From Enterobacteria phage Kha5h: a stretch of DNA of 64,000 nt. Position 1 is the stretch's first letter. Every line of letters starts with the position of its first letter. The position numbers and the translations under genes were made by a program. The notes below the pieces were generated by a model, which made no database searches, was not told the origin of the DNA, and saw only the letters and a list, made by a program, of their open reading frames with translations. Shown here piece by piece: positions 1,502-34,212 of the stretch. Location of the stretch: the sequence record NC_054905.1; one strand, written 5' to 3'.

Positions 1502-1531
1502 ATAGTATCACACTACTACCCTTCTGTAAAC
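1502..1531 (-). promoter_or_regulatory. sigma70-type phage early promoter (-35 GTTTAC, 18-nt spacer, -10 TACTAT)
   Basis: minus-strand GTTTAC at 1526..1531 and TACTAT at 1502..1507; same cassette recurs through the window. Confidence 0.5.
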
Positions 1532-1917
1532 TACTTTTTGAAAGTTTTTCGCAAAAGTTCAATGATTTCATCTACATTGTTTTCGTCTACAATGCAGTGA
1601 ATTTTTGTTACGCCAGAAACTATACCTTCATTAGCGGATTGAGGCTTTTCTAAAGTTACCTCAGTAAAGTATTTGAATTCTTCAGAGTAAATCTCAAAAT
1701 ACGTCTCAAGTGGGCCACCCGCCATGTATTCAGTGCCATCTTCCATAGTTACACGTACCACACATTCACCAGCACAATCATCACTTTCCATTTCATCTAC
1801 AACAAAACTAGGTCCGTGCTTCTCTATTAAATTTAGCATCATTACATTGCAACGACACTCGTTAGCAAAGTCATTTTTAAATAAAGGGTTAATGATATAA
1901 GTTTTTCCAACTTCCAT
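1531..1917 (-). CDS. hypothetical early protein (128 aa)
   Basis: track ORF. Confidence 0.55.
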   Translation of the reverse strand: MEVGKTYIINPLFKNDFANECRCNVMMLNLIEKHGPSFVVDEMESDDCAGECVVRVTMEDGTEYMAGGPLETYFEIYSEEFKYFTEVTLEKPQSANEGIVSGVTKIHCIVDENNVDEIIELLRKTFKK

Positions 1918-3346: not shown

Positions 3347-4000
3347 TTAATACTTGCAAGATTTCACAGTTTCAATAAAAACACTTTTAGCTTTCTGTGA
3401 ATCAATATTTAAAATTTTTCTATAAGCCTTTAACTTTATAGAATAATTATTCCAGACTAAATTATCAGTCTGTTCATCATGTTTATCAATTATATTTAAA
3501 AACGAATCAAGCAAGATAAACGTCTCAAACGAAATTATGTTCGATTGCAGAAGTTTAAAAATATAACTTGACTGAACCTTTGGATTATATTCAAAGATTT
3601 CTTTAAAAGCAGAAACTTCAACTTTTTTACTAAAATAATAAATGTTGCGAATATCTTCTTCAAACTTAAATTTAATTTGCTTTAAGCGTCCGATATATTC
3701 ACGATAAAACACAAGTGCATCAGCGTCAGAGATGTCACCAATCCAAGCATCTTGGTTAGCAACCAAATTGCTTATAAAGATTAAAGCAAGTTCCTTTAAT
3801 TTATATTTTTCTGATAACTTCTGGAAAAAATACTTATCCCTTCGCTTTTGATAAGCGGCATCAGACACCCGCATGCACCAATTATACTTAATAACATCAT
3901 ACTTTCCATTCATATGCTGTTTTATCATTAAGTATAATTTATAAACTGATTTACCATCAATGTATCTTTCACCACCAGCAGGCATGCGGAGTTTAATCAT
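3347..4000 (-). CDS. 59: gp59 helicase loader
   Basis: 217 aa, matches T4 gp59 from memory. Confidence 0.93.
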   Translation of the reverse strand: MIKLRMPAGGERYIDGKSVYKLYLMIKQHMNGKYDVIKYNWCMRVSDAAYQKRRDKYFFQKLSEKYKLKELALIFISNLVANQDAWIGDISDADALVFYREYIGRLKQIKFKFEEDIRNIYYFSKKVEVSAFKEIFEYNPKVQSSYIFKLLQSNIISFETFILLDSFLNIIDKHDEQTDNLVWNNYSIKLKAYRKILNIDSQKAKSVFIETVKSCKY

Positions 4001-4335
4001 AGCAGAAAATCTAATGTATTAGTTTTTTCACAACGAACAACAGAAGGACGTAAAAGATTTTCGTCAATGGCTTCTGACTGAATTTTTTCAATTATACCCG
4101 AAGGAATAAATTTAGCAAATTGAGTTTCAGGAATAGAATTTTCTTCCAAGAATGCTGTTGTAGCTTCAAGATAACTCATTCCAAACTCTTCTACCATTTT
4201 TTCAATAATAAATCCATTTTCTTGACGATCAAGAAGCTTTGCTATTTCATCCTTTTCTTTCTTAATTGAAAGTTCTTTTTCTGAAAGACCGGTCTCATCG
4301 ACCGGACGAATATCATTTAGAGAAAACTGTGTCAT
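3997..4335 (-). CDS. 33: gp33 late-transcription co-activator
   Basis: 112 aa from ATG 4335 (MTQFSLNDIRPVDETGLSEKELSIKKEKDEIAKLLDRQENGF...); track ORF starts 3 codons upstream. Confidence 0.88.
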   Translation of the reverse strand: MTQFSLNDIRPVDETGLSEKELSIKKEKDEIAKLLDRQENGFIIEKMVEEFGMSYLEATTAFLEENSIPETQFAKFIPSGIIEKIQSEAIDENLLRPSVVRCEKTNTLDFLL

Positions 4336-29381: not shown

Positions 29382-29651
29382 TTATTTAAAGCGGATAGTT
29401 GAATCCTTAAAGAAAAGCCCAGAACATACTGTTCCTTCTACTTTCTGCCCGGTAGGTCCAATAGCACGAAATCCAGTATGTTGGAAATCATTTTCAGAAC
29501 AACCGAACCAATTATATCCAGTGATTTCAATATTAGTAAAACCACTTGATGATAAAATTTTAGTTGCATTATCAGCATCAGTACATCCTACTAAAGATAC
29601 TGCTAATACTAATGCTGCGATAGAACGATTAATATATTTCATAATTTTCAC
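29382..29651 (-). CDS. putative lipoprotein (89 aa)
   Basis: signal peptide with lipobox LVGC: MKIMKYINRSIAALVLAVSLVGCTD... Confidence 0.6.
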   Translation of the reverse strand: MKIMKYINRSIAALVLAVSLVGCTDADNATKILSSSGFTNIEITGYNWFGCSENDFQHTGFRAIGPTGQKVEGTVCSGLFFKDSTIRFK

Positions 29652-30019
29652 TTAAATTTAATAGCTTGAAGAAGACTAATAATTCTCAAGCGACTTCTTT
29701 CATCTTTAACTGTAAAAGAAAGAGGGTCACCAGATTTCATAGTAATAGTACATTCAAAATCAAAATCTTCTGTGACTTCTTCGAAGAAGTCAAATTCTTC
29801 ATCATAAATTAGAACATTACTCTGAAAACTGTGAAGAATTTTTCCATCATTTCCAGATGCTGTACTAATCATTGTAACATTATTACCTTTCATATCTTCA
29901 ACGATAAATTCGCTTGTAGATATTACAGCATTAATAGAACCATTCCTATAAATAGCAGACATTAGATATTTCTTTTCTTCGCCTTTGCGAATATGATACT
30001 TCTTACCAATTTTAAACAT
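29648..30019 (-). CDS. hypothetical protein (123 aa)
   Basis: track ORF. Confidence 0.55.
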   Translation of the reverse strand: MFKIGKKYHIRKGEEKKYLMSAIYRNGSINAVISTSEFIVEDMKGNNVTMISTASGNDGKILHSFQSNVLIYDEEFDFFEEVTEDFDFECTITMKSGDPLSFTVKDERSRLRIISLLQAIKFK

Positions 30020-30200: not shown

Positions 30201-30626
30201 TTATTCCTTAAAGTGTGCTTTCAACATCTGATACAAGGACCATGCCTGTTCATTATTTTCAATAGTAACTTTCATGACTGGGAATTCTGTGAAATCTTCT
30301 ATTTGTTCTTGCTCTTTCTCTTCCTGCTCTTGTTCTTCAGCTGCCTGGTATGGATTTTCAACTTCATCAAAGAATTCAGCTTCGCTAGTAGAAAGCCAAA
30401 TAAAATCTTCATCCAAAATATCTTTACCGGAGGATAATGCCAATCTTCCAGTAGATGTCACAATTTTAGTAGGACGACCAAGATAGTCAATATCTATAAC
30501 TTTAAAAGGTTCCATACCTAAACGTCGTGCATAAATTCCGTTTTCAGTATGGTCTTTAATAAAAGCTTCTTGAGCTTGTTTATTTTTAAATTGATACCAT
30601 TTATTGACTTCAAATCTAATAGCCAT
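30201..30626 (-). CDS. goF: GoF (comC-alpha) protein
   Basis: 141 aa, acidic [12 protein letters not shown] tract, T4 position. Confidence 0.75.
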
Positions 30627-30841
30627 TAATAAATTTCCTTCCAGTAAGTTGTACCGTCTTCAGTGATTTCACGGAATACACCATAAATCGGTTGTTTATC
30701 ACCAACCTTTTCATACACATAAACCGAAGTCAAGTGAGTAAACTTGATGGTGTGTTCCTTTTGAACTACTACCAAATCTGGATCGAATAATACATCTTCA
30801 AATTCGTCATTAGTGCAGTTCTGAACAATTTTACGTTTCAT
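30626..30841 (-). CDS. cef: Cef (modifier of suppressor tRNAs)
   Basis: 71 aa at the T4 cef position. Confidence 0.65.
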
Positions 30842-30854
30842 TACAATTTCCTCA

Positions 30855-31124
30855 TTAATTGAACAGTGGAGCGATGCGTTTCAGAAGAGTAGCAGCACCT
30901 TTGGCAAATTTTACATCATGAAAAACAGTTTCTTCTTCCGTTACAACACGAGCTTTAATGTTTTCACAATCCCAATTTTTACGAACAATCTTCAAAAGCT
31001 GCAGTAAATCTTTACATTCAGCAATATCGATAACACATCCACGAGAATCTTCCATTATCGCACGATAACCGTAAGCCATACCATAATCATTGAAAGATTG
31101 CTCGATGATAATTAAATTTTCCAT
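30855..31124 (-). CDS. hypothetical protein (89 aa)
   Basis: ATG 31124 preceded by the conserved leader GGAGAATAAA. Confidence 0.55.
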   Translation of the reverse strand: MENLIIIEQSFNDYGMAYGYRAIMEDSRGCVIDIAECKDLLQLLKIVRKNWDCENIKARVVTEEETVFHDVKFAKGAATLLKRIAPLFN

Positions 31125-31221
31125 TTTATTCTCCAAGTTGTTTTCTGTATCAGTAGTTGATATTGATATAGTACCATAATCAACTACTGATGTATATAGT
31201 TTTATGAAAAAATTTTAAACT

Positions 31222-31713
31222 TTATGCATAGCGAGCTTTGCTGTAGTGTTTAATCCAACTTTCAGGAATGACTTTGTATGTTCCTAAAAATACCGCGTTG
31301 TATAACTTAACGCCATCTTCTACCCATTGATCAGTAATGTATGCACACATAGCGCGAGTACGGTTAACAACACCTTCCTCACCTTCAGTAAATTCAAACT
31401 CATAAGGAGCAACGAACTTGATAGCTTGACCGAGTTTCCACTTAAAGTCTACACCTACATGCGAAGTATCAATCGTTTCAATTCCTTTAGCGGGAACAGC
31501 TTTCAAAAACGCAGGCTCAAGAAATTTCCATCGAACATAACCAAACTGAGGTTTAGACATTCCATCTTTAGGAATGATACGCACTTTTACTTCAGAATCT
31601 TCATCTTTAACACCATGTTTAAGCTGAATGCTTACGACTTCAACCAATTTTCCTGCTGCTTTAGAACGGGATTTATCAGATACACGAGCAATTTCACCGA
31701 TATTAATATTCAT
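31222..31713 (-). CDS. motB: MotB (modifier of transcription)
   Basis: 163 aa, MNINIGEIARVSDKSRSKAAGKLVEVVSIQLKHG... Confidence 0.8.
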   Translation of the reverse strand: MNINIGEIARVSDKSRSKAAGKLVEVVSIQLKHGVKDEDSEVKVRIIPKDGMSKPQFGYVRWKFLEPAFLKAVPAKGIETIDTSHVGVDFKWKLGQAIKFVAPYEFEFTEGEEGVVNRTRAMCAYITDQWVEDGVKLYNAVFLGTYKVIPESWIKHYSKARYA

Positions 31714-31786
31714 AATTATCTCTCACTTGTTAAAAAGATTTTATACTCCGCAGGACCATTATACTCTGGTCCCAAGAGTTTGTAAA

Positions 31787-32224
31787 CTAGCTTACACGAA
31801 CATTAATCACTGCGCTACGAGGAACTACAGAGTATTCTCCAGCATGAACTACGTTCAGAAGTTCAACACCATCTTCAATCCACTGATCAGTCACCCATCC
31901 ACCCACAGGATTCGCGAATGGACGACGAATATAAACTGCCTTACACAGCAGATCAGTTGGATCTTCAGGTTTTTCAATTTCTGTCAATAGACTAAAATCT
32001 TTTTCATAAATAATAAGCGATGATACCATTCCATAATAGTTTCTAATTTCAATATACATCATACCGATAAGAATTCCGCTATTAACACTAATAACAGTAA
32101 AAGGATATCCGCCAGTTAAACCAAGAAGTTCACAAAACTTATTATGAGCTGTATTAGACAGTACCGAAAAATTCTTAATTTCATCAAATTTTTTCAATTG
32201 ATAAACAGCATTATTTTTAATCAT
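31787..32224 (-). CDS. hypothetical protein with MotB C-terminal-like domain (145 aa)
   Basis: C-terminus VTDQWIEDGVELLNVVHAGEYSVVPRS aligns with MotB ITDQWVEDGVKLYNAVFLGTYKVIPES. Confidence 0.6.
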   Translation of the reverse strand: MIKNNAVYQLKKFDEIKNFSVLSNTAHNKFCELLGLTGGYPFTVISVNSGILIGMMYIEIRNYYGMVSSLIIYEKDFSLLTEIEKPEDPTDLLCKAVYIRRPFANPVGGWVTDQWIEDGVELLNVVHAGEYSVVPRSAVINVRVS

Positions 32225-32234
32225 GATTTTCTCT

Positions 32235-32777
32235 TTAATCTAAAGTAATAAAGCCTTTTAATTCGGCATGTGATTTGCGGAACATTACTTGGTGCCCGCC
32301 AATGATAACTTGGTCATCAGGTACTTCGTATACAGCGAGATAAAATCCTTTAGAAGCTAATTCTTCACGCTCTTCTCGTGTGAACCATCTCATCATATCA
32401 TATTCGCTAGCGAAAGCAAAATGATAAAGAGCTATAAACCATCCTGGAATATAGTGATCTACGCCTACATATTCTTCTTTCTCAAAATTAGTATTAATTG
32501 CTATATTAGCATTTTTAACTAATAATTTGTCTTCATGCGGCACAGGAATTCTTTTATTATCATTACTATGATGCATAAAATTGGGTCTGTCATAACCTAC
32601 GCGTAATAACCACTCTTCACTCCATGAATCTATTATACTCCTGTACGGAGTTATTTGAACACAAAGATTTCGACGTATTGTTATAGCATCTTCATAATTA
32701 AGAATACTAAACGATGATTCAACACGATAAATTTTCATTTTATTATCCTCAGTAGCTATGGTGTTATAATACCACAA
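32235..32777 (-). CDS. hypothetical protein (180 aa)
   Basis: track ORF. Confidence 0.55.
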   Translation of the reverse strand: MWYYNTIATEDNKMKIYRVESSFSILNYEDAITIRRNLCVQITPYRSIIDSWSEEWLLRVGYDRPNFMHHSNDNKRIPVPHEDKLLVKNANIAINTNFEKEEYVGVDHYIPGWFIALYHFAFASEYDMMRWFTREEREELASKGFYLAVYEVPDDQVIIGGHQVMFRKSHAELKGFITLD

Positions 32778-32801
32778 CTAACCGAGGAAGTAAACAACTT
32801 T

Positions 32802-33485
32802 TTATCGTTTTGTTGGAAGAGACAGAGGATCGCACTCTTCCTCTGACGGAGCATCTTCAAGACCCATAGCATAGCGCAAAGCATACTTCATCATCAGGAT
32901 GTCTTTCGCACAGTCATGAATAGAATCATGTGCAACGAATCCATCTAAGGTTCCCTTTGGAAGAGGACAAGTGGTCATATCACGAACAAGGAGAAGTGCT
33001 TCAATTCTAGTACGAATGTCGCGTTGATTCCAGAATTTACACGGTTCTAACTTAAATGTATCAAGCTCATTCTCGGAAACGCCGTTAAGACGTTGAATAT
33101 CGCGAATGAGATCGACTAAAATTGGAAAATCAAACGACATTCCACGGCACCAACCTTGAGATTTCCAAGGATCGATATTATGTGCATTGATGTAATCATT
33201 AAATTTTGCAATACCGTCAATAGTGCTTACATCTTCATCTGATGGTGCAATATTTTTTCTAGCTTCAGGTGATTGATTTTTCCACCATTCGATAGTGCTT
33301 TTAGTAAAAAGACGATGTCCTTTTTGGCTTTTTAAATCAAATTTGATTTTAATGCCACGTGAAACTAATTCATCAAACGTTTCAACGACTTCTGGATTAG
33401 GGTCAAAAGCAATTACAGCCAAATCAATAACAGCTGCTTTTTCACCACTTCCCATTGTTTCAAAATCTATAATAAAATCAAACAT
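32802..33485 (-). CDS. dexA: exonuclease A (DexA, 3'-5' DEDD-type)
   Basis: 227 aa, MFDFIIDFETMGSGEKAAVIDLAVIAF... Confidence 0.9.
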   Translation of the reverse strand: MFDFIIDFETMGSGEKAAVIDLAVIAFDPNPEVVETFDELVSRGIKIKFDLKSQKGHRLFTKSTIEWWKNQSPEARKNIAPSDEDVSTIDGIAKFNDYINAHNIDPWKSQGWCRGMSFDFPILVDLIRDIQRLNGVSENELDTFKLEPCKFWNQRDIRTRIEALLLVRDMTTCPLPKGTLDGFVAHDSIHDCAKDILMMKYALRYAMGLEDAPSEEECDPLSLPTKR

Positions 33486-33760
33486 TAAACTTTCCTCGCT
33501 AAATCGCGAATTTGACCTACAGTATAATCTTGGATATAAACTTTATTAATAGGCTCATCAATAAATTTTGCCATAGATTCAATATCTTTTTGTATCTCTT
33601 CAAGACTGTATACTATCTTTAAAGCTTTTTCGCGAATAGTAATATTTTCAGGACTAGAATTTTCCTCAATGACAGCTTTAACATTTGTCATAAGAGATTT
33701 AAACTGATGCAAACTTAATTCAATCATTAATAACCGCCTTATAAAGATGGCTAATTTCAC
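33485..33760 (-). CDS. hypothetical protein (91 aa), member of a tandem paralog trio
   Basis: C-terminal half LEEIQKDIES...VYIQDYTVGQIRDL resembles the next ORF. Confidence 0.5.
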   Translation of the reverse strand: MKLAIFIRRLLMIELSLHQFKSLMTNVKAVIEENSSPENITIREKALKIVYSLEEIQKDIESMAKFIDEPINKVYIQDYTVGQIRDLARKV

Positions 33761-33980
33761 CTAAAACATAATCACTGATTGTGACAGTTTTCACTTCACC
33801 ACAAAAGAATTCTAACGCAATTAAATCTCGTTCAATTTCTTCTAATTGAAGCATTAACTTACCAGATTCAATTTTTACATTTCTACGATTTTTACTATAA
33901 GCTATTTCATAAATTTCGCTCACTTTATCTTGAAGTAGATAAAACTGGTCTTTAGTTATTTCCACGAATAGCTTCCTCAA
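33720..33980 (-). CDS. hypothetical protein (86 aa), tandem paralog
   Basis: LEEIERDLIA...VTISDYVLGEISHL. Confidence 0.5.
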   Translation of the reverse strand: MRKLFVEITKDQFYLLQDKVSEIYEIAYSKNRRNVKIESGKLMLQLEEIERDLIALEFFCGEVKTVTISDYVLGEISHLYKAVIND

Positions 33981-34212
33981 ATTTAATTAGTAATTTACAG
34001 ACACTTTCATCTAGTGTAATTACCGTATCTGTATTACTGTGATATGATTGTTTTTCAATTCGTTTAATTGCTAATATAGTATCACTTATAAGATAAAGCT
34101 TATGAAGGAGCTCAGCTCCTGTTACCATAACATCGAGATTATCTTGCTTATTAGTATGCTTCCTTATACCATCTATTAGACGATTTAAATATTTTGAATT
34201 GATGTTAATCAT
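33952..34212 (-). CDS. hypothetical protein (86 aa), possible third paralog
   Basis: weaker similarity (IKRIEKQ...VITLDESVCKLL). Confidence 0.45.
   Translation of the reverse strand: MININSKYLNRLIDGIRKHTNKQDNLDVMVTGAELLHKLYLISDTILAIKRIEKQSYHSNTDTVITLDESVCKLLIKFEEAIRGNN

What the first reader, a model, noticed from the sequence alone, without database searches (positions are those of the whole stretch)
31222..32224. MotB followed by a paralog sharing only its C-terminal domain
The 145-aa ORF at 31787..32224 has a C-terminus (VTDQWIEDGVELLNVVHAGEYSVVPRS) clearly homologous to the MotB C-terminus (ITDQWVEDGVKLYNAVFLGTYKVIPES), about 15 of 27 identical, while the N-terminal parts are unrelated. 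This looks like domain shuffling that makes a second protein with a MotB-like module and a different partner domain.
Basis: seen in the sequence. Interest (0 to 1): 0.5.

Follow-up and report, generated by a model that had tools for sequence, protein, structure and literature searches.

The report
T4-type MotB and MotB.1 paralogs

Summary
The window is a Tequatrovirus (T4-like) genome. ORF 31222..31713(-) is MotB (Pfam PF17613, E 1e-96). ORF 31787..32224(-) is MotB.1, 100% identical to RB27_012. Their C-termini match at 16/29 residues (BLASTP E 6e-10; Smith-Waterman z 14.9; 0 of 5000 shuffles reach the score). Profile-profile alignment widens the shared region to about 51 columns (MotB.1 91-141, MotB 92-156; E 1e-15). 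That is a whole five-stranded small beta-barrel, and MotB carries an extra hairpin in it. The N-terminal domains are not detectably related. MotB has a KOW-type barrel. MotB.1 has a GoF/Frd.2-type barrel (hhalign E 1.2e-5 against three paralogs in this window; KOW controls score below 1% probability). The domain-shuffling reading is therefore supported. It is not new: Patterson-West et al. 2021 (PMC7827196) reported the shared C-terminal domain and differing N-terminal domains, and Kim et al. 2025 (PMC12152347) described the MotB.1 N-terminal domain. MotB.1's function is still unknown. One side finding may be useful. The T4 reference MotB.1 (119 aa) is cut short by a 1-bp insertion found only in the reference record, and 13 other T4 genomes listed in the same search encode the full-length protein. 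The published plasmid-expression assays therefore probably used a protein without the shared domain.

The parts
31222..31713 (-). motB coding sequence (163 aa plus stop)
   Evidence: Pfam PF17613 full-length match, E 1.1e-96. phrog_1671, E 2e-76. Annotated motB in T4, RB27, phiD1 and Bp7 at the syntenic position.
31510..31713 (-). MotB N-terminal KOW-type small barrel (residues 1-68); basic, net charge +4
   Evidence: AF2 strands 8-11, 23-30, 41-46, 56-61, 65-67. Charge. Remote relatives P0240 and P0249 pass the Pfam KOW PF00467 cut-off at the equivalent position. HHpred KOW assignment in PMC7827196.
31225..31446 (-). MotB C-terminal barrel (residues 90-163), with a hairpin insert at about residues 101-121
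   Evidence: hhalign maps MotB 92-156 to MotB.1 91-141. AF2 strands 97-110, 115-132, 135-142, 145-150, 154-157. Joint alignment A3.
31258..31344 (-). MotB core motif AYITDQWVEDGVKLYNAVFLGTYKVIPES (residues 124-152)
   Evidence: BLASTP. tblastn of the MotB.1 C-terminal domain hits 31344..31258, E 8.6e-9.
31758..31786 (-). Early-type sigma-70 promoter of motB (TTTACA, 17 nt, TATAAT), starting right after the motB.1 stop codon
   Evidence: 11 of 12 consensus match, the best in the region. Sequence read. A 72-73 nt motB.1-motB spacer is seen in phiD1, ESh31 and Bp7, but the T4 reference annotation gives 149 nt because of its frameshift. Function is inferred.
31787..32224 (-). motB.1 coding sequence (145 aa plus stop)
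   Evidence: 100% identical to RB27_012, whose note reads 'motB.1'. phrog_2333, E 6.7e-68. Shine-Dalgarno AAAGAG lies 6 nt before the ATG. dN/dS is 0-0.11 in the C-terminal domain and 0.29-0.42 in the N-terminal domain.
31973..32224 (-). MotB.1 N-terminal GoF/Frd.2-type (LSm/SH3-like) barrel, residues 1-84
   Evidence: AF2 strands 7-10, 42-49, 55-61, 67-73, 80-83 and helices 19-37. hhalign against window paralogs, E 1.2e-5. HMM hit to ORF 29648..30019, E 3.8e-4. Kim 2025.
31790..31963 (-). MotB.1 C-terminal MotB-type barrel (residues 88-145); acidic, net charge -2
   Evidence: hhalign. AF2 strands 96-99, 107-117, 120-127, 130-135, a 3-residue helix, then 139-142. Charge.
31814..31900 (-). MotB.1 core motif GWVTDQWIEDGVELLNVVHAGEYSVVPRS (residues 109-137)
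   Evidence: BLASTP. tblastn of the MotB C-terminal domain hits 31900..31808.
32235..32738 (-). motB.2, probably co-transcribed with motB.1. The likely start is ATG 32738, not the TTG at 32777 that the ORF listing gives.
   Evidence: phrog_1106. RB27_013 is 504 bp. GAGGA lies 8 nt before ATG 32738.
32766..32794 (-). Candidate early promoter for the motB.2-motB.1 unit (GTTTACT, 17 nt, TATTAT)
   Evidence: Consensus match only; function is inferred.
29648..30019 (-). 123-aa paralog of the MotB.1 N-terminal domain (GoF/Frd.2 family, phrog_622)
30201..30626 (-). goF, with an N-terminal domain of the same barrel family
   Evidence: phrog_622, E 3.7e-40. RB27 annotation. Kim 2025.
1531..1917 (-). 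Frd.2-like gene, same barrel family
   Evidence: phrog_622, E 1.1e-38. Lies between frd and gene 32.

Best explanation
These are the T4-type early genes motB.1 (31787..32224, minus strand, upstream) and motB (31222..31713, minus strand, downstream). Shown here: both proteins are built from two small beta-barrels joined by a linker. Their C-terminal barrels are homologous over about 51 aligned positions, with the invariant core [ST]D.W.E.G..L.N.V, and MotB carries an extra hairpin of about 15-20 residues between strands 1 and 2. Their N-terminal barrels come from different families: a basic KOW-type barrel in MotB, and a GoF/Frd.2-type LSm/SH3-like barrel in MotB.1. That second family has three more members in this window. 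MotB.1 is therefore a chimeric paralog made by combining the MotB-type C-terminal module with another N-terminal domain. The split is old (60% nucleotide identity in the core), and the gene is under strong purifying selection. Inferred: motB.2 and motB.1 are transcribed from an early sigma-70 promoter upstream of motB.2, and motB from its own near-consensus early promoter that starts right after the motB.1 stop codon. How it probably works (inference, about 0.3): MotB is a non-specific DNA-binding protein that copurifies with H-NS/StpA and alters how H-NS occupies DNA. Its positive charge sits in the KOW domain, so that domain is the likely DNA binder. The shared C-terminal barrel has a conserved acid-aromatic face and is acidic in MotB.1, so it more likely supplies a common protein contact: self-association, MotB-MotB.1 association, or binding to H-NS/StpA. 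On this view MotB.1 would bring an RNA- or protein-binding LSm-like barrel to the same partner early in infection.
Confidence: 0.85

Rival explanations
1. Tandem duplication of a whole motB-like gene, after which the N-terminal barrel of one copy diverged beyond recognition. No domain swap took place.
For: The genes are adjacent and in the same orientation. Both N-terminal domains are predicted small barrels with a short helix before the last strand. The 2021 paper proposed duplication.
Against: The MotB.1 N-terminal profile aligns with the GoF/Frd.2/ORF123 family (E 1.2e-5), while the KOW profile gives below 1% probability against both. Proteins exist that pair a MotB-type N-terminal domain with a MotB.1-type C-terminal domain, and others with two GoF-like barrels before it. 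This shows real recombination of modules.
Confidence: 0.12
2. The C-terminal similarity comes from recent gene conversion or recombination between the 3' ends of two otherwise unrelated adjacent genes.
For: The most similar part is a compact 29-residue block at the 3' ends of neighbouring genes.
Against: Nucleotide identity in the block is only 60%, with 48% at third codon positions. The same MotB versus MotB.1 difference is kept across genera. Homology also extends upstream of the block.
Confidence: 0.02
3. motB.1 is a decaying, non-functional remnant, as the truncated T4 reference copy and its dispensability might suggest.
For: The T4 reference copy is frameshifted. T4 lacking motB.1 shows no phenotype.
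Against: dN/dS in the C-terminal domain is 0-0.11 at dS 0.28-1.2. tblastn finds matches in 761 phage records (340 covering at least 80% of the protein), and 721 records carry at least 80% of the 63-nt core. The frameshift is confined to the single reference sequence.
Confidence: 0.02
4. Chance or compositional similarity.
For: None beyond the short length of the block.
Against: z 14.9 and 0 of 5000 shuffles reach the score. hhalign E 1e-15. The Pfam hit is above the curated cut-off.
Confidence: 0.01

Closest known systems
T4 MotB.1 (NP_049627 / UniProt P39415) and its orthologs; 'Category 2' of Patterson-West et al. 2021, Viruses 13:84 (PMC7827196)
   Same: Same gene at the same position between motB.2 and motB, with the same two-domain layout. 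It is 79-81% identical to the T4-type protein and 100% identical to RB27_012. The paper states that MotB and MotB.1 share a conserved C-terminal domain and have different N-terminal domains.
   Different: The window protein is full length (145 aa). The T4 reference entry is 119 aa because of a 1-bp insertion and lacks strands 3-5 of the shared barrel. Other alleles carry a 22-aa linker insert (167 aa) or a second N-terminal barrel (about 250 aa).
T4 MotB (Pfam PF17613): a non-specific DNA-binding protein that copurifies with H-NS/StpA (PMC6070864, PMC7827196)
   Same: The window ORF 31222..31713 is an ortholog, 86% identical to the T4-type protein. MotB.1 shares its C-terminal barrel.
   Different: MotB.1 lacks the basic KOW N-terminal domain and the hairpin insert, and it is acidic overall (pI 5.35 against 9.0). 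DNA binding and toxicity therefore cannot be assumed for MotB.1.
GoF / Frd.2 / MotB.1 'LSm-like fold' family (Kim et al. 2025, PMC12152347)
   Same: The MotB.1 N-terminal domain is a five-stranded bent sheet. It is related at profile level to the GoF, Frd.2-like and 123-aa ORF proteins of this window.
   Different: GoF and Frd.2 have other C-terminal regions. Only MotB.1 carries the MotB-type barrel. No RNA-binding activity has been shown for wild-type GoF or for MotB.1.
Tandem small-barrel readers (53BP1 tandem Tudor, Spt5/NusG KOW repeats, PWWP, chromo)
   Different: Sequence identity is only 9-20%. This is fold resemblance only. There is no evidence of common descent or of methyl-lysine reading.

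Membership tests
MotB (Pfam PF17613, phrog_1671), for ORF 31222..31713 | Full-length match to the family profile above the curated cut-off | tested here: met
   321.5 bits against a cut-off of 25; residues 1-163 match profile positions 1-162.
MotB (Pfam PF17613), for ORF 31787..32224 | Match to both the N-terminal KOW part and the C-terminal part of the profile | tested here: not met
   Only residues 104-139 match profile positions 118-153 (32.7 bits). The N-terminal halves score no better than shuffles, and hhalign of the KOW domain against the MotB.1 N-terminal domain gives probability 0.6%. It shares a domain with MotB but is not a MotB ortholog.
MotB.1 orthologs (phrog_2333; T4 gene motB.1) | Full-length similarity to MotB.1 proteins | tested here: met
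   phrog_2333, E 6.7e-68, residues 1-144. 100% identical to RB27_012, annotated motB.1.
MotB.1 orthologs (phrog_2333; T4 gene motB.1) | Position between motB.2 and motB, downstream of dexA | tested here: met
   The window order matches T4, RB27, phiD1, ESh31 and Bp7.
GoF/Frd.2/MotB.1 LSm-like N-terminal domain family (Kim 2025) | N-terminal five-stranded antiparallel bent beta-sheet | tested here: met
   The AF2 model has five strands within residues 7-83 at pLDDT 81-90. This is a prediction, not a solved structure.
GoF/Frd.2/MotB.1 LSm-like N-terminal domain family (Kim 2025) | Detectable sequence or profile relationship to GoF and Frd.2 | tested here: met
   hhalign E 1.2e-5, probability 81%, 72 columns, against an alignment of GoF, the Frd.2-like protein and ORF123. 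ORF123 hits both phrog_622 (E 6.6e-29) and phrog_2333 (E 0.0038). Pairwise BLASTP to GoF shows nothing, so the support is modest.
OB-fold, cold-shock DNA-binding type (assigned to the MotB C-terminal domain in PMC7827196) | Five-stranded Greek-key barrel with a helix between strands 3 and 4 | tested here: inconclusive
SH3-like small beta-barrel (Tudor/KOW/chromo class) | Five strands with a short 3-10 helix between strands 4 and 5, and structural matches to class members | tested here: met
Nucleoid-associated, non-specific DNA-binding protein (the activity of MotB) | Binds DNA; copurifies with H-NS/StpA; toxic when over-expressed | not testable with these tools
   Only a proxy is available: MotB.1 is acidic (pI 5.35, net -3) while MotB is basic (pI 9.0). 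This argues against simple electrostatic DNA coating by MotB.1.

The most novel reading that the evidence does not exclude
The MotB-type C-terminal barrel may be a portable adaptor that brings different small nucleic-acid-binding barrels (KOW in MotB, LSm-like in MotB.1) to one shared partner, such as H-NS/StpA-bound DNA or each other. In addition, the real activity of MotB.1 may never have been assayed in heterologous expression, because those constructs were most likely synthesised from the T4 reference sequence. Its 1-bp insertion removes strands 3-5 of this barrel.
Probability: 0.25. Interest if true: 0.4.

Novelty: already known. Interest (0 to 1): 0.15.

Why it matters
The shared C-terminal domain of MotB and MotB.1 is published, so the finding adds no new biology. 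It is a clean example of how T-even phages build early host-takeover proteins by recombining small barrel domains. Two points here may help people working on these proteins. First, the shared region is a complete barrel that looks SH3/Tudor-like rather than OB-like. Second, the full-length 143-145 aa MotB.1, not the 119-aa T4 reference product, is the form that should be tested for DNA binding, H-NS binding and toxicity.

Tried and rejected
- **Sequence search of the PDB.** Neither protein has a meaningful match (best E 0.29).
- **Pairwise BLASTP of MotB.1 against GoF and against ORF123.** No signal. Only profile methods link them.
- **Further copies of either domain in the 64-kb window.** tblastn found none for the C-terminal domain beyond the two genes.
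- **MotA-box scan (WTGCTTWA).** No site near either gene, so there is no sign of a middle promoter.
- **Terminator scan.** No terminator between the genes. The single hit lies inside motB.1 and is at the chance level.
- **Gene conversion as the cause of the similarity.** Rejected on third-position divergence.
- **Four long repeat proteins found by the C-terminal profile search (P0242, P0244, P0245, P0247).** The two I read (P0242, P0245) are Ig-like and fibre-like repeats that match a short W/G motif several times; the other two show the same multi-stretch pattern. I treat all four as spurious.

Full report
**What is there.** The window is a T4-like phage genome of the genus Tequatrovirus. Region 30800-33500 is 97-98% identical to Shigella phage JK38, Escherichia phage JLBYU22 and many others. 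ORF 31222..31713(-), 163 aa, matches Pfam PF17613 'motB' over its whole length (E 1.1e-96) and phrog_1671. ORF 31787..32224(-), 145 aa, is 100% identical to RB27_012, whose record note reads 'motB.1'. It matches phrog_2333 end to end (E 6.7e-68). The gene order dexA, motB.2, motB.1, motB on the minus strand is the same as in T4, RB27, phiD1, ESh31 and the Dhakavirus Bp7. Both genes are on the minus strand, so motB.1 lies upstream of motB.

**Check of the observation.** The quoted peptides are present and share 16 of 27 identical residues.
- BLASTP gives 16/29 identities, E 6e-10.
- A Smith-Waterman score of 98 compares with 28.2 +/- 4.7 for 5000 shuffles of MotB.1. That is z 14.9, and no shuffle reaches the score.
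- The N-terminal parts score below the shuffle mean.
- The Pfam motB model hits MotB.1 residues 104-139 above its curated cut-off.

**Extent and nature of the shared module.** I aligned 19 MotB.1-type proteins (A1) and 22 MotB-type proteins (A2) and compared the two profiles. MotB.1 91-141 aligns with MotB 92-156: 51 columns, probability 98.6%, E 1.1e-15.

AlphaFold2 models were built for MotB.1 (mean pLDDT 84.8) and MotB (80.9). Each shows two small beta-barrels joined by a linker. Under the hhalign mapping the C-terminal strands correspond one-to-one:

| Strand | MotB.1 | MotB |
|---|---|---|
| 1 | 96-99 | 97-110 |
| 2 | 107-117 | 115-132 |
| 3 | 120-127 | 135-142 |
| 4 | 130-135 | 145-150 |
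| 5 | 139-142 | 154-157 |

MotB has a longer hairpin between strands 1 and 2, which is the 13-15 residue insert seen in alignment A3. In both proteins a 3-residue helix sits between strands 4 and 5. Residues invariant across both families are, in MotB.1 numbering, L93, F103, D113, W115, E117, G119, L122, N124 and V126.

**The partner domains.** MotB's N-terminal domain is the basic KOW-type barrel, with net charge +4. Remote relatives P0240 and P0249 pass the Pfam KOW cut-off at the equivalent position.

MotB.1's N-terminal domain (residues 1-84) is a different family.
- An HMM built from it hits the 123-aa ORF at 29648..30019(-), E 3.8e-4 over the full domain.
- That ORF, GoF (30201..30626) and a Frd.2-like ORF (1531..1917) all fall in phrog_622. 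The 123-aa ORF also touches the MotB.1 family phrog_2333, E 0.0038.
- hhalign of the MotB.1 N-terminal alignment against these three window paralogs gives E 1.2e-5, probability 81%, over 72 columns. MotB's KOW alignment gives below 1% probability against either.
- Foldseek against viral models finds GoF of phage VR7 weakly, E 7.7e-3.

This agrees with Kim et al. [quoted passage not shown]

**Evidence for shuffling.** The C-terminal module occurs in several combinations:
- with one GoF-like barrel (this protein);
- with a 22-aa linker motif inserted (167-aa alleles);
- with two N-terminal barrels (about 250 aa);
- with a different leader (180 aa).

It also occurs in hybrids P0236 and P0241, which carry a MotB-type 'VS..SKSKVAG' N-terminus and a MotB.1-type C-terminal domain. 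That domain is 58% identical to the window protein's.

A profile of the joint C-terminal alignment, searched against 1.84 billion representative proteins, finds only 32 clusters at E <= 0.001. Four of these are repeat-protein artefacts. The module is therefore narrow in distribution.

The two cores share 60% nucleotide identity, and 48% at third codon positions, which rules out recent gene conversion.

**Is motB.1 a real, expressed gene?** dN/dS against four relatives is 0-0.11 in the C-terminal domain (dS 0.28-1.2) and 0.29-0.42 in the N-terminal domain. An AAAGAG Shine-Dalgarno sequence lies 6 nt before the ATG. A GTTTACT, 17 nt, TATTAT promoter lies upstream of motB.2. A near-consensus TTTACA, 17 nt, TATAAT promoter starts right after the motB.1 stop codon and would drive motB. 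No MotA box lies nearby. The literature calls both genes early genes. I have no direct expression data for this phage.

**Mechanism.** Established for MotB: it binds modified and unmodified DNA without sequence specificity, is toxic when over-produced, copurifies with H-NS and StpA, alters H-NS footprints, and doubles burst size. For MotB.1 nothing is established. The T4 deletion mutant has a normal burst and latent period, and the protein had little effect in an RNA reporter assay.

My inference, at a probability of about 0.3, is this. MotB's positive charge is in the KOW domain. The conserved face of the shared barrel is acidic and aromatic, and the whole barrel is acidic in MotB.1. The shared barrel is therefore more likely a protein-contact module, either for self-association or for binding H-NS/StpA, than the DNA binder. 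MotB.1 would then bring a different barrel to the same place. The alternative, that the barrel itself binds DNA, is what the 2021 paper suggested, and I cannot exclude it.

**Comparison with what is known, and novelty.** Patterson-West et al. 2021 (PMC7827196, section 3.2 and Discussion) state that T4 MotB and MotB.1 share a conserved C-terminal domain and have different N-terminal domains. They propose duplication and classify 102 homologs into four categories. Their Table S4 lists Sf22 gp182, from a phage 97.4% identical to this window across the region. The finding is therefore already known.

**Side finding.** The T4 reference MotB.1 (119 aa) ends '...GWVTDQWIGRWR'. A 1-bp insertion (GGATTgGAAG) shifts the frame, and the +1 frame continues with an intact 'LEDGVELLNVVHAGEYSVVPRSAVVAILN'. 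Of 722 phage records carrying this stretch, only AF158101.6 and NC_000866.4, which are the same sequence, have the extra base. Thirteen other T4 records listed in that search lack it, and the one I read encodes a 143-aa protein.

The 2025 study obtained its motB.1 plasmids by gene synthesis, cites NC_000866.4 for its amber-mutant T4 constructs, and reports a 13.8-kDa product. Neither paper mentions a truncation. In the 2021 table the T4 protein is the weakest hit in the portion of Table S4 I read (56 bits against more than 100 for relatives). The heterologous assays therefore probably used a protein that lacks strands 3-5 of the shared barrel. This is an inference from the methods text.

Noticed in passing
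L001 (NC_000866.4) 3792-4151, equivalent to window 31787..31870: The T4 reference motB.1 carries a 1-bp insertion that truncates the protein to 119 aa and removes most of the MotB-like barrel. Only the reference record (AF158101.6 / NC_000866.4) has it. Thirteen other T4 genome records listed in the search, and relatives such as the window phage, are full length. Published plasmid-based assays of MotB.1 (gene synthesis, 13.8-kDa product) probably used the truncated form.
   Followed up: yes
window 29648..30019 (-): A 123-aa ORF sits between the 39.1 and 39.2 homologs. It is absent from T4 and present as RB27_005. It is a further member of the GoF/Frd.2 barrel family (phrog_622, E 6.6e-29), and it is the sequence bridge to the MotB.1 N-terminal domain. 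With it, this window holds four members of that family.
   Followed up: partly
proteins P0236, P0241, P0240 and P0249 from the representative search (no locus): Hybrid architectures exist. P0236 and P0241 combine a MotB-type N-terminus with a MotB.1-type C-terminal barrel. P0240 and P0249 are remote relatives with a bona fide Pfam KOW motif plus the MotB C-terminal barrel. I could not look up their source genomes.
   Followed up: partly
protein P0243 (43 aa, no locus): A 43-aa product joins the first 17 or so residues of MotB.2 (MKIYRVESSFSIL.YED) directly to the MotB.1 core (GVELLNVVHAGDFSVVPRSAVVAILN). This looks like a deletion between motB.2 and motB.1. It recalls the 29-aa RB69 peptide called 'Category 3' in the 2021 paper.
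   Followed up: no
window 32738..32794 (-): the ORF listing starts motB.2 at TTG 32777 (180 aa). However, a GTTTACT, 17 nt, TATTAT promoter (32794..32766) and a GAGGA ribosome-binding site point to ATG 32738 (167 aa, as annotated in RB27).
   Followed up: partly
window 31752..31773 (-): An inverted repeat GGGACC, 10 nt, GGTCCT spans the -10 box of the motB promoter. It is a perfect GGGACC/GGTCCC repeat in T4. It may be a 3' stem-loop of the motB.1 transcript or a regulatory element. I did not test it.
   Followed up: no
window 33485..33760 (-) and 33720..33980 (-): The small ORFs between dexA and dda (dexA.1/dexA.2-like) include a pair of tandem paralogs, 30% identical over 83 aa, E 1e-9. This window has three such small ORFs where T4 has two. 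The third (33952..34212) shows no similarity to its neighbour.
   Followed up: partly
window 30855..31136 (-): A 93-aa ORF (phrog_3720, unknown function) lies between cef and motB. T4 has only an intergenic gap there, and RB27 has two different ORFs. The early region is mosaic here.
   Followed up: no
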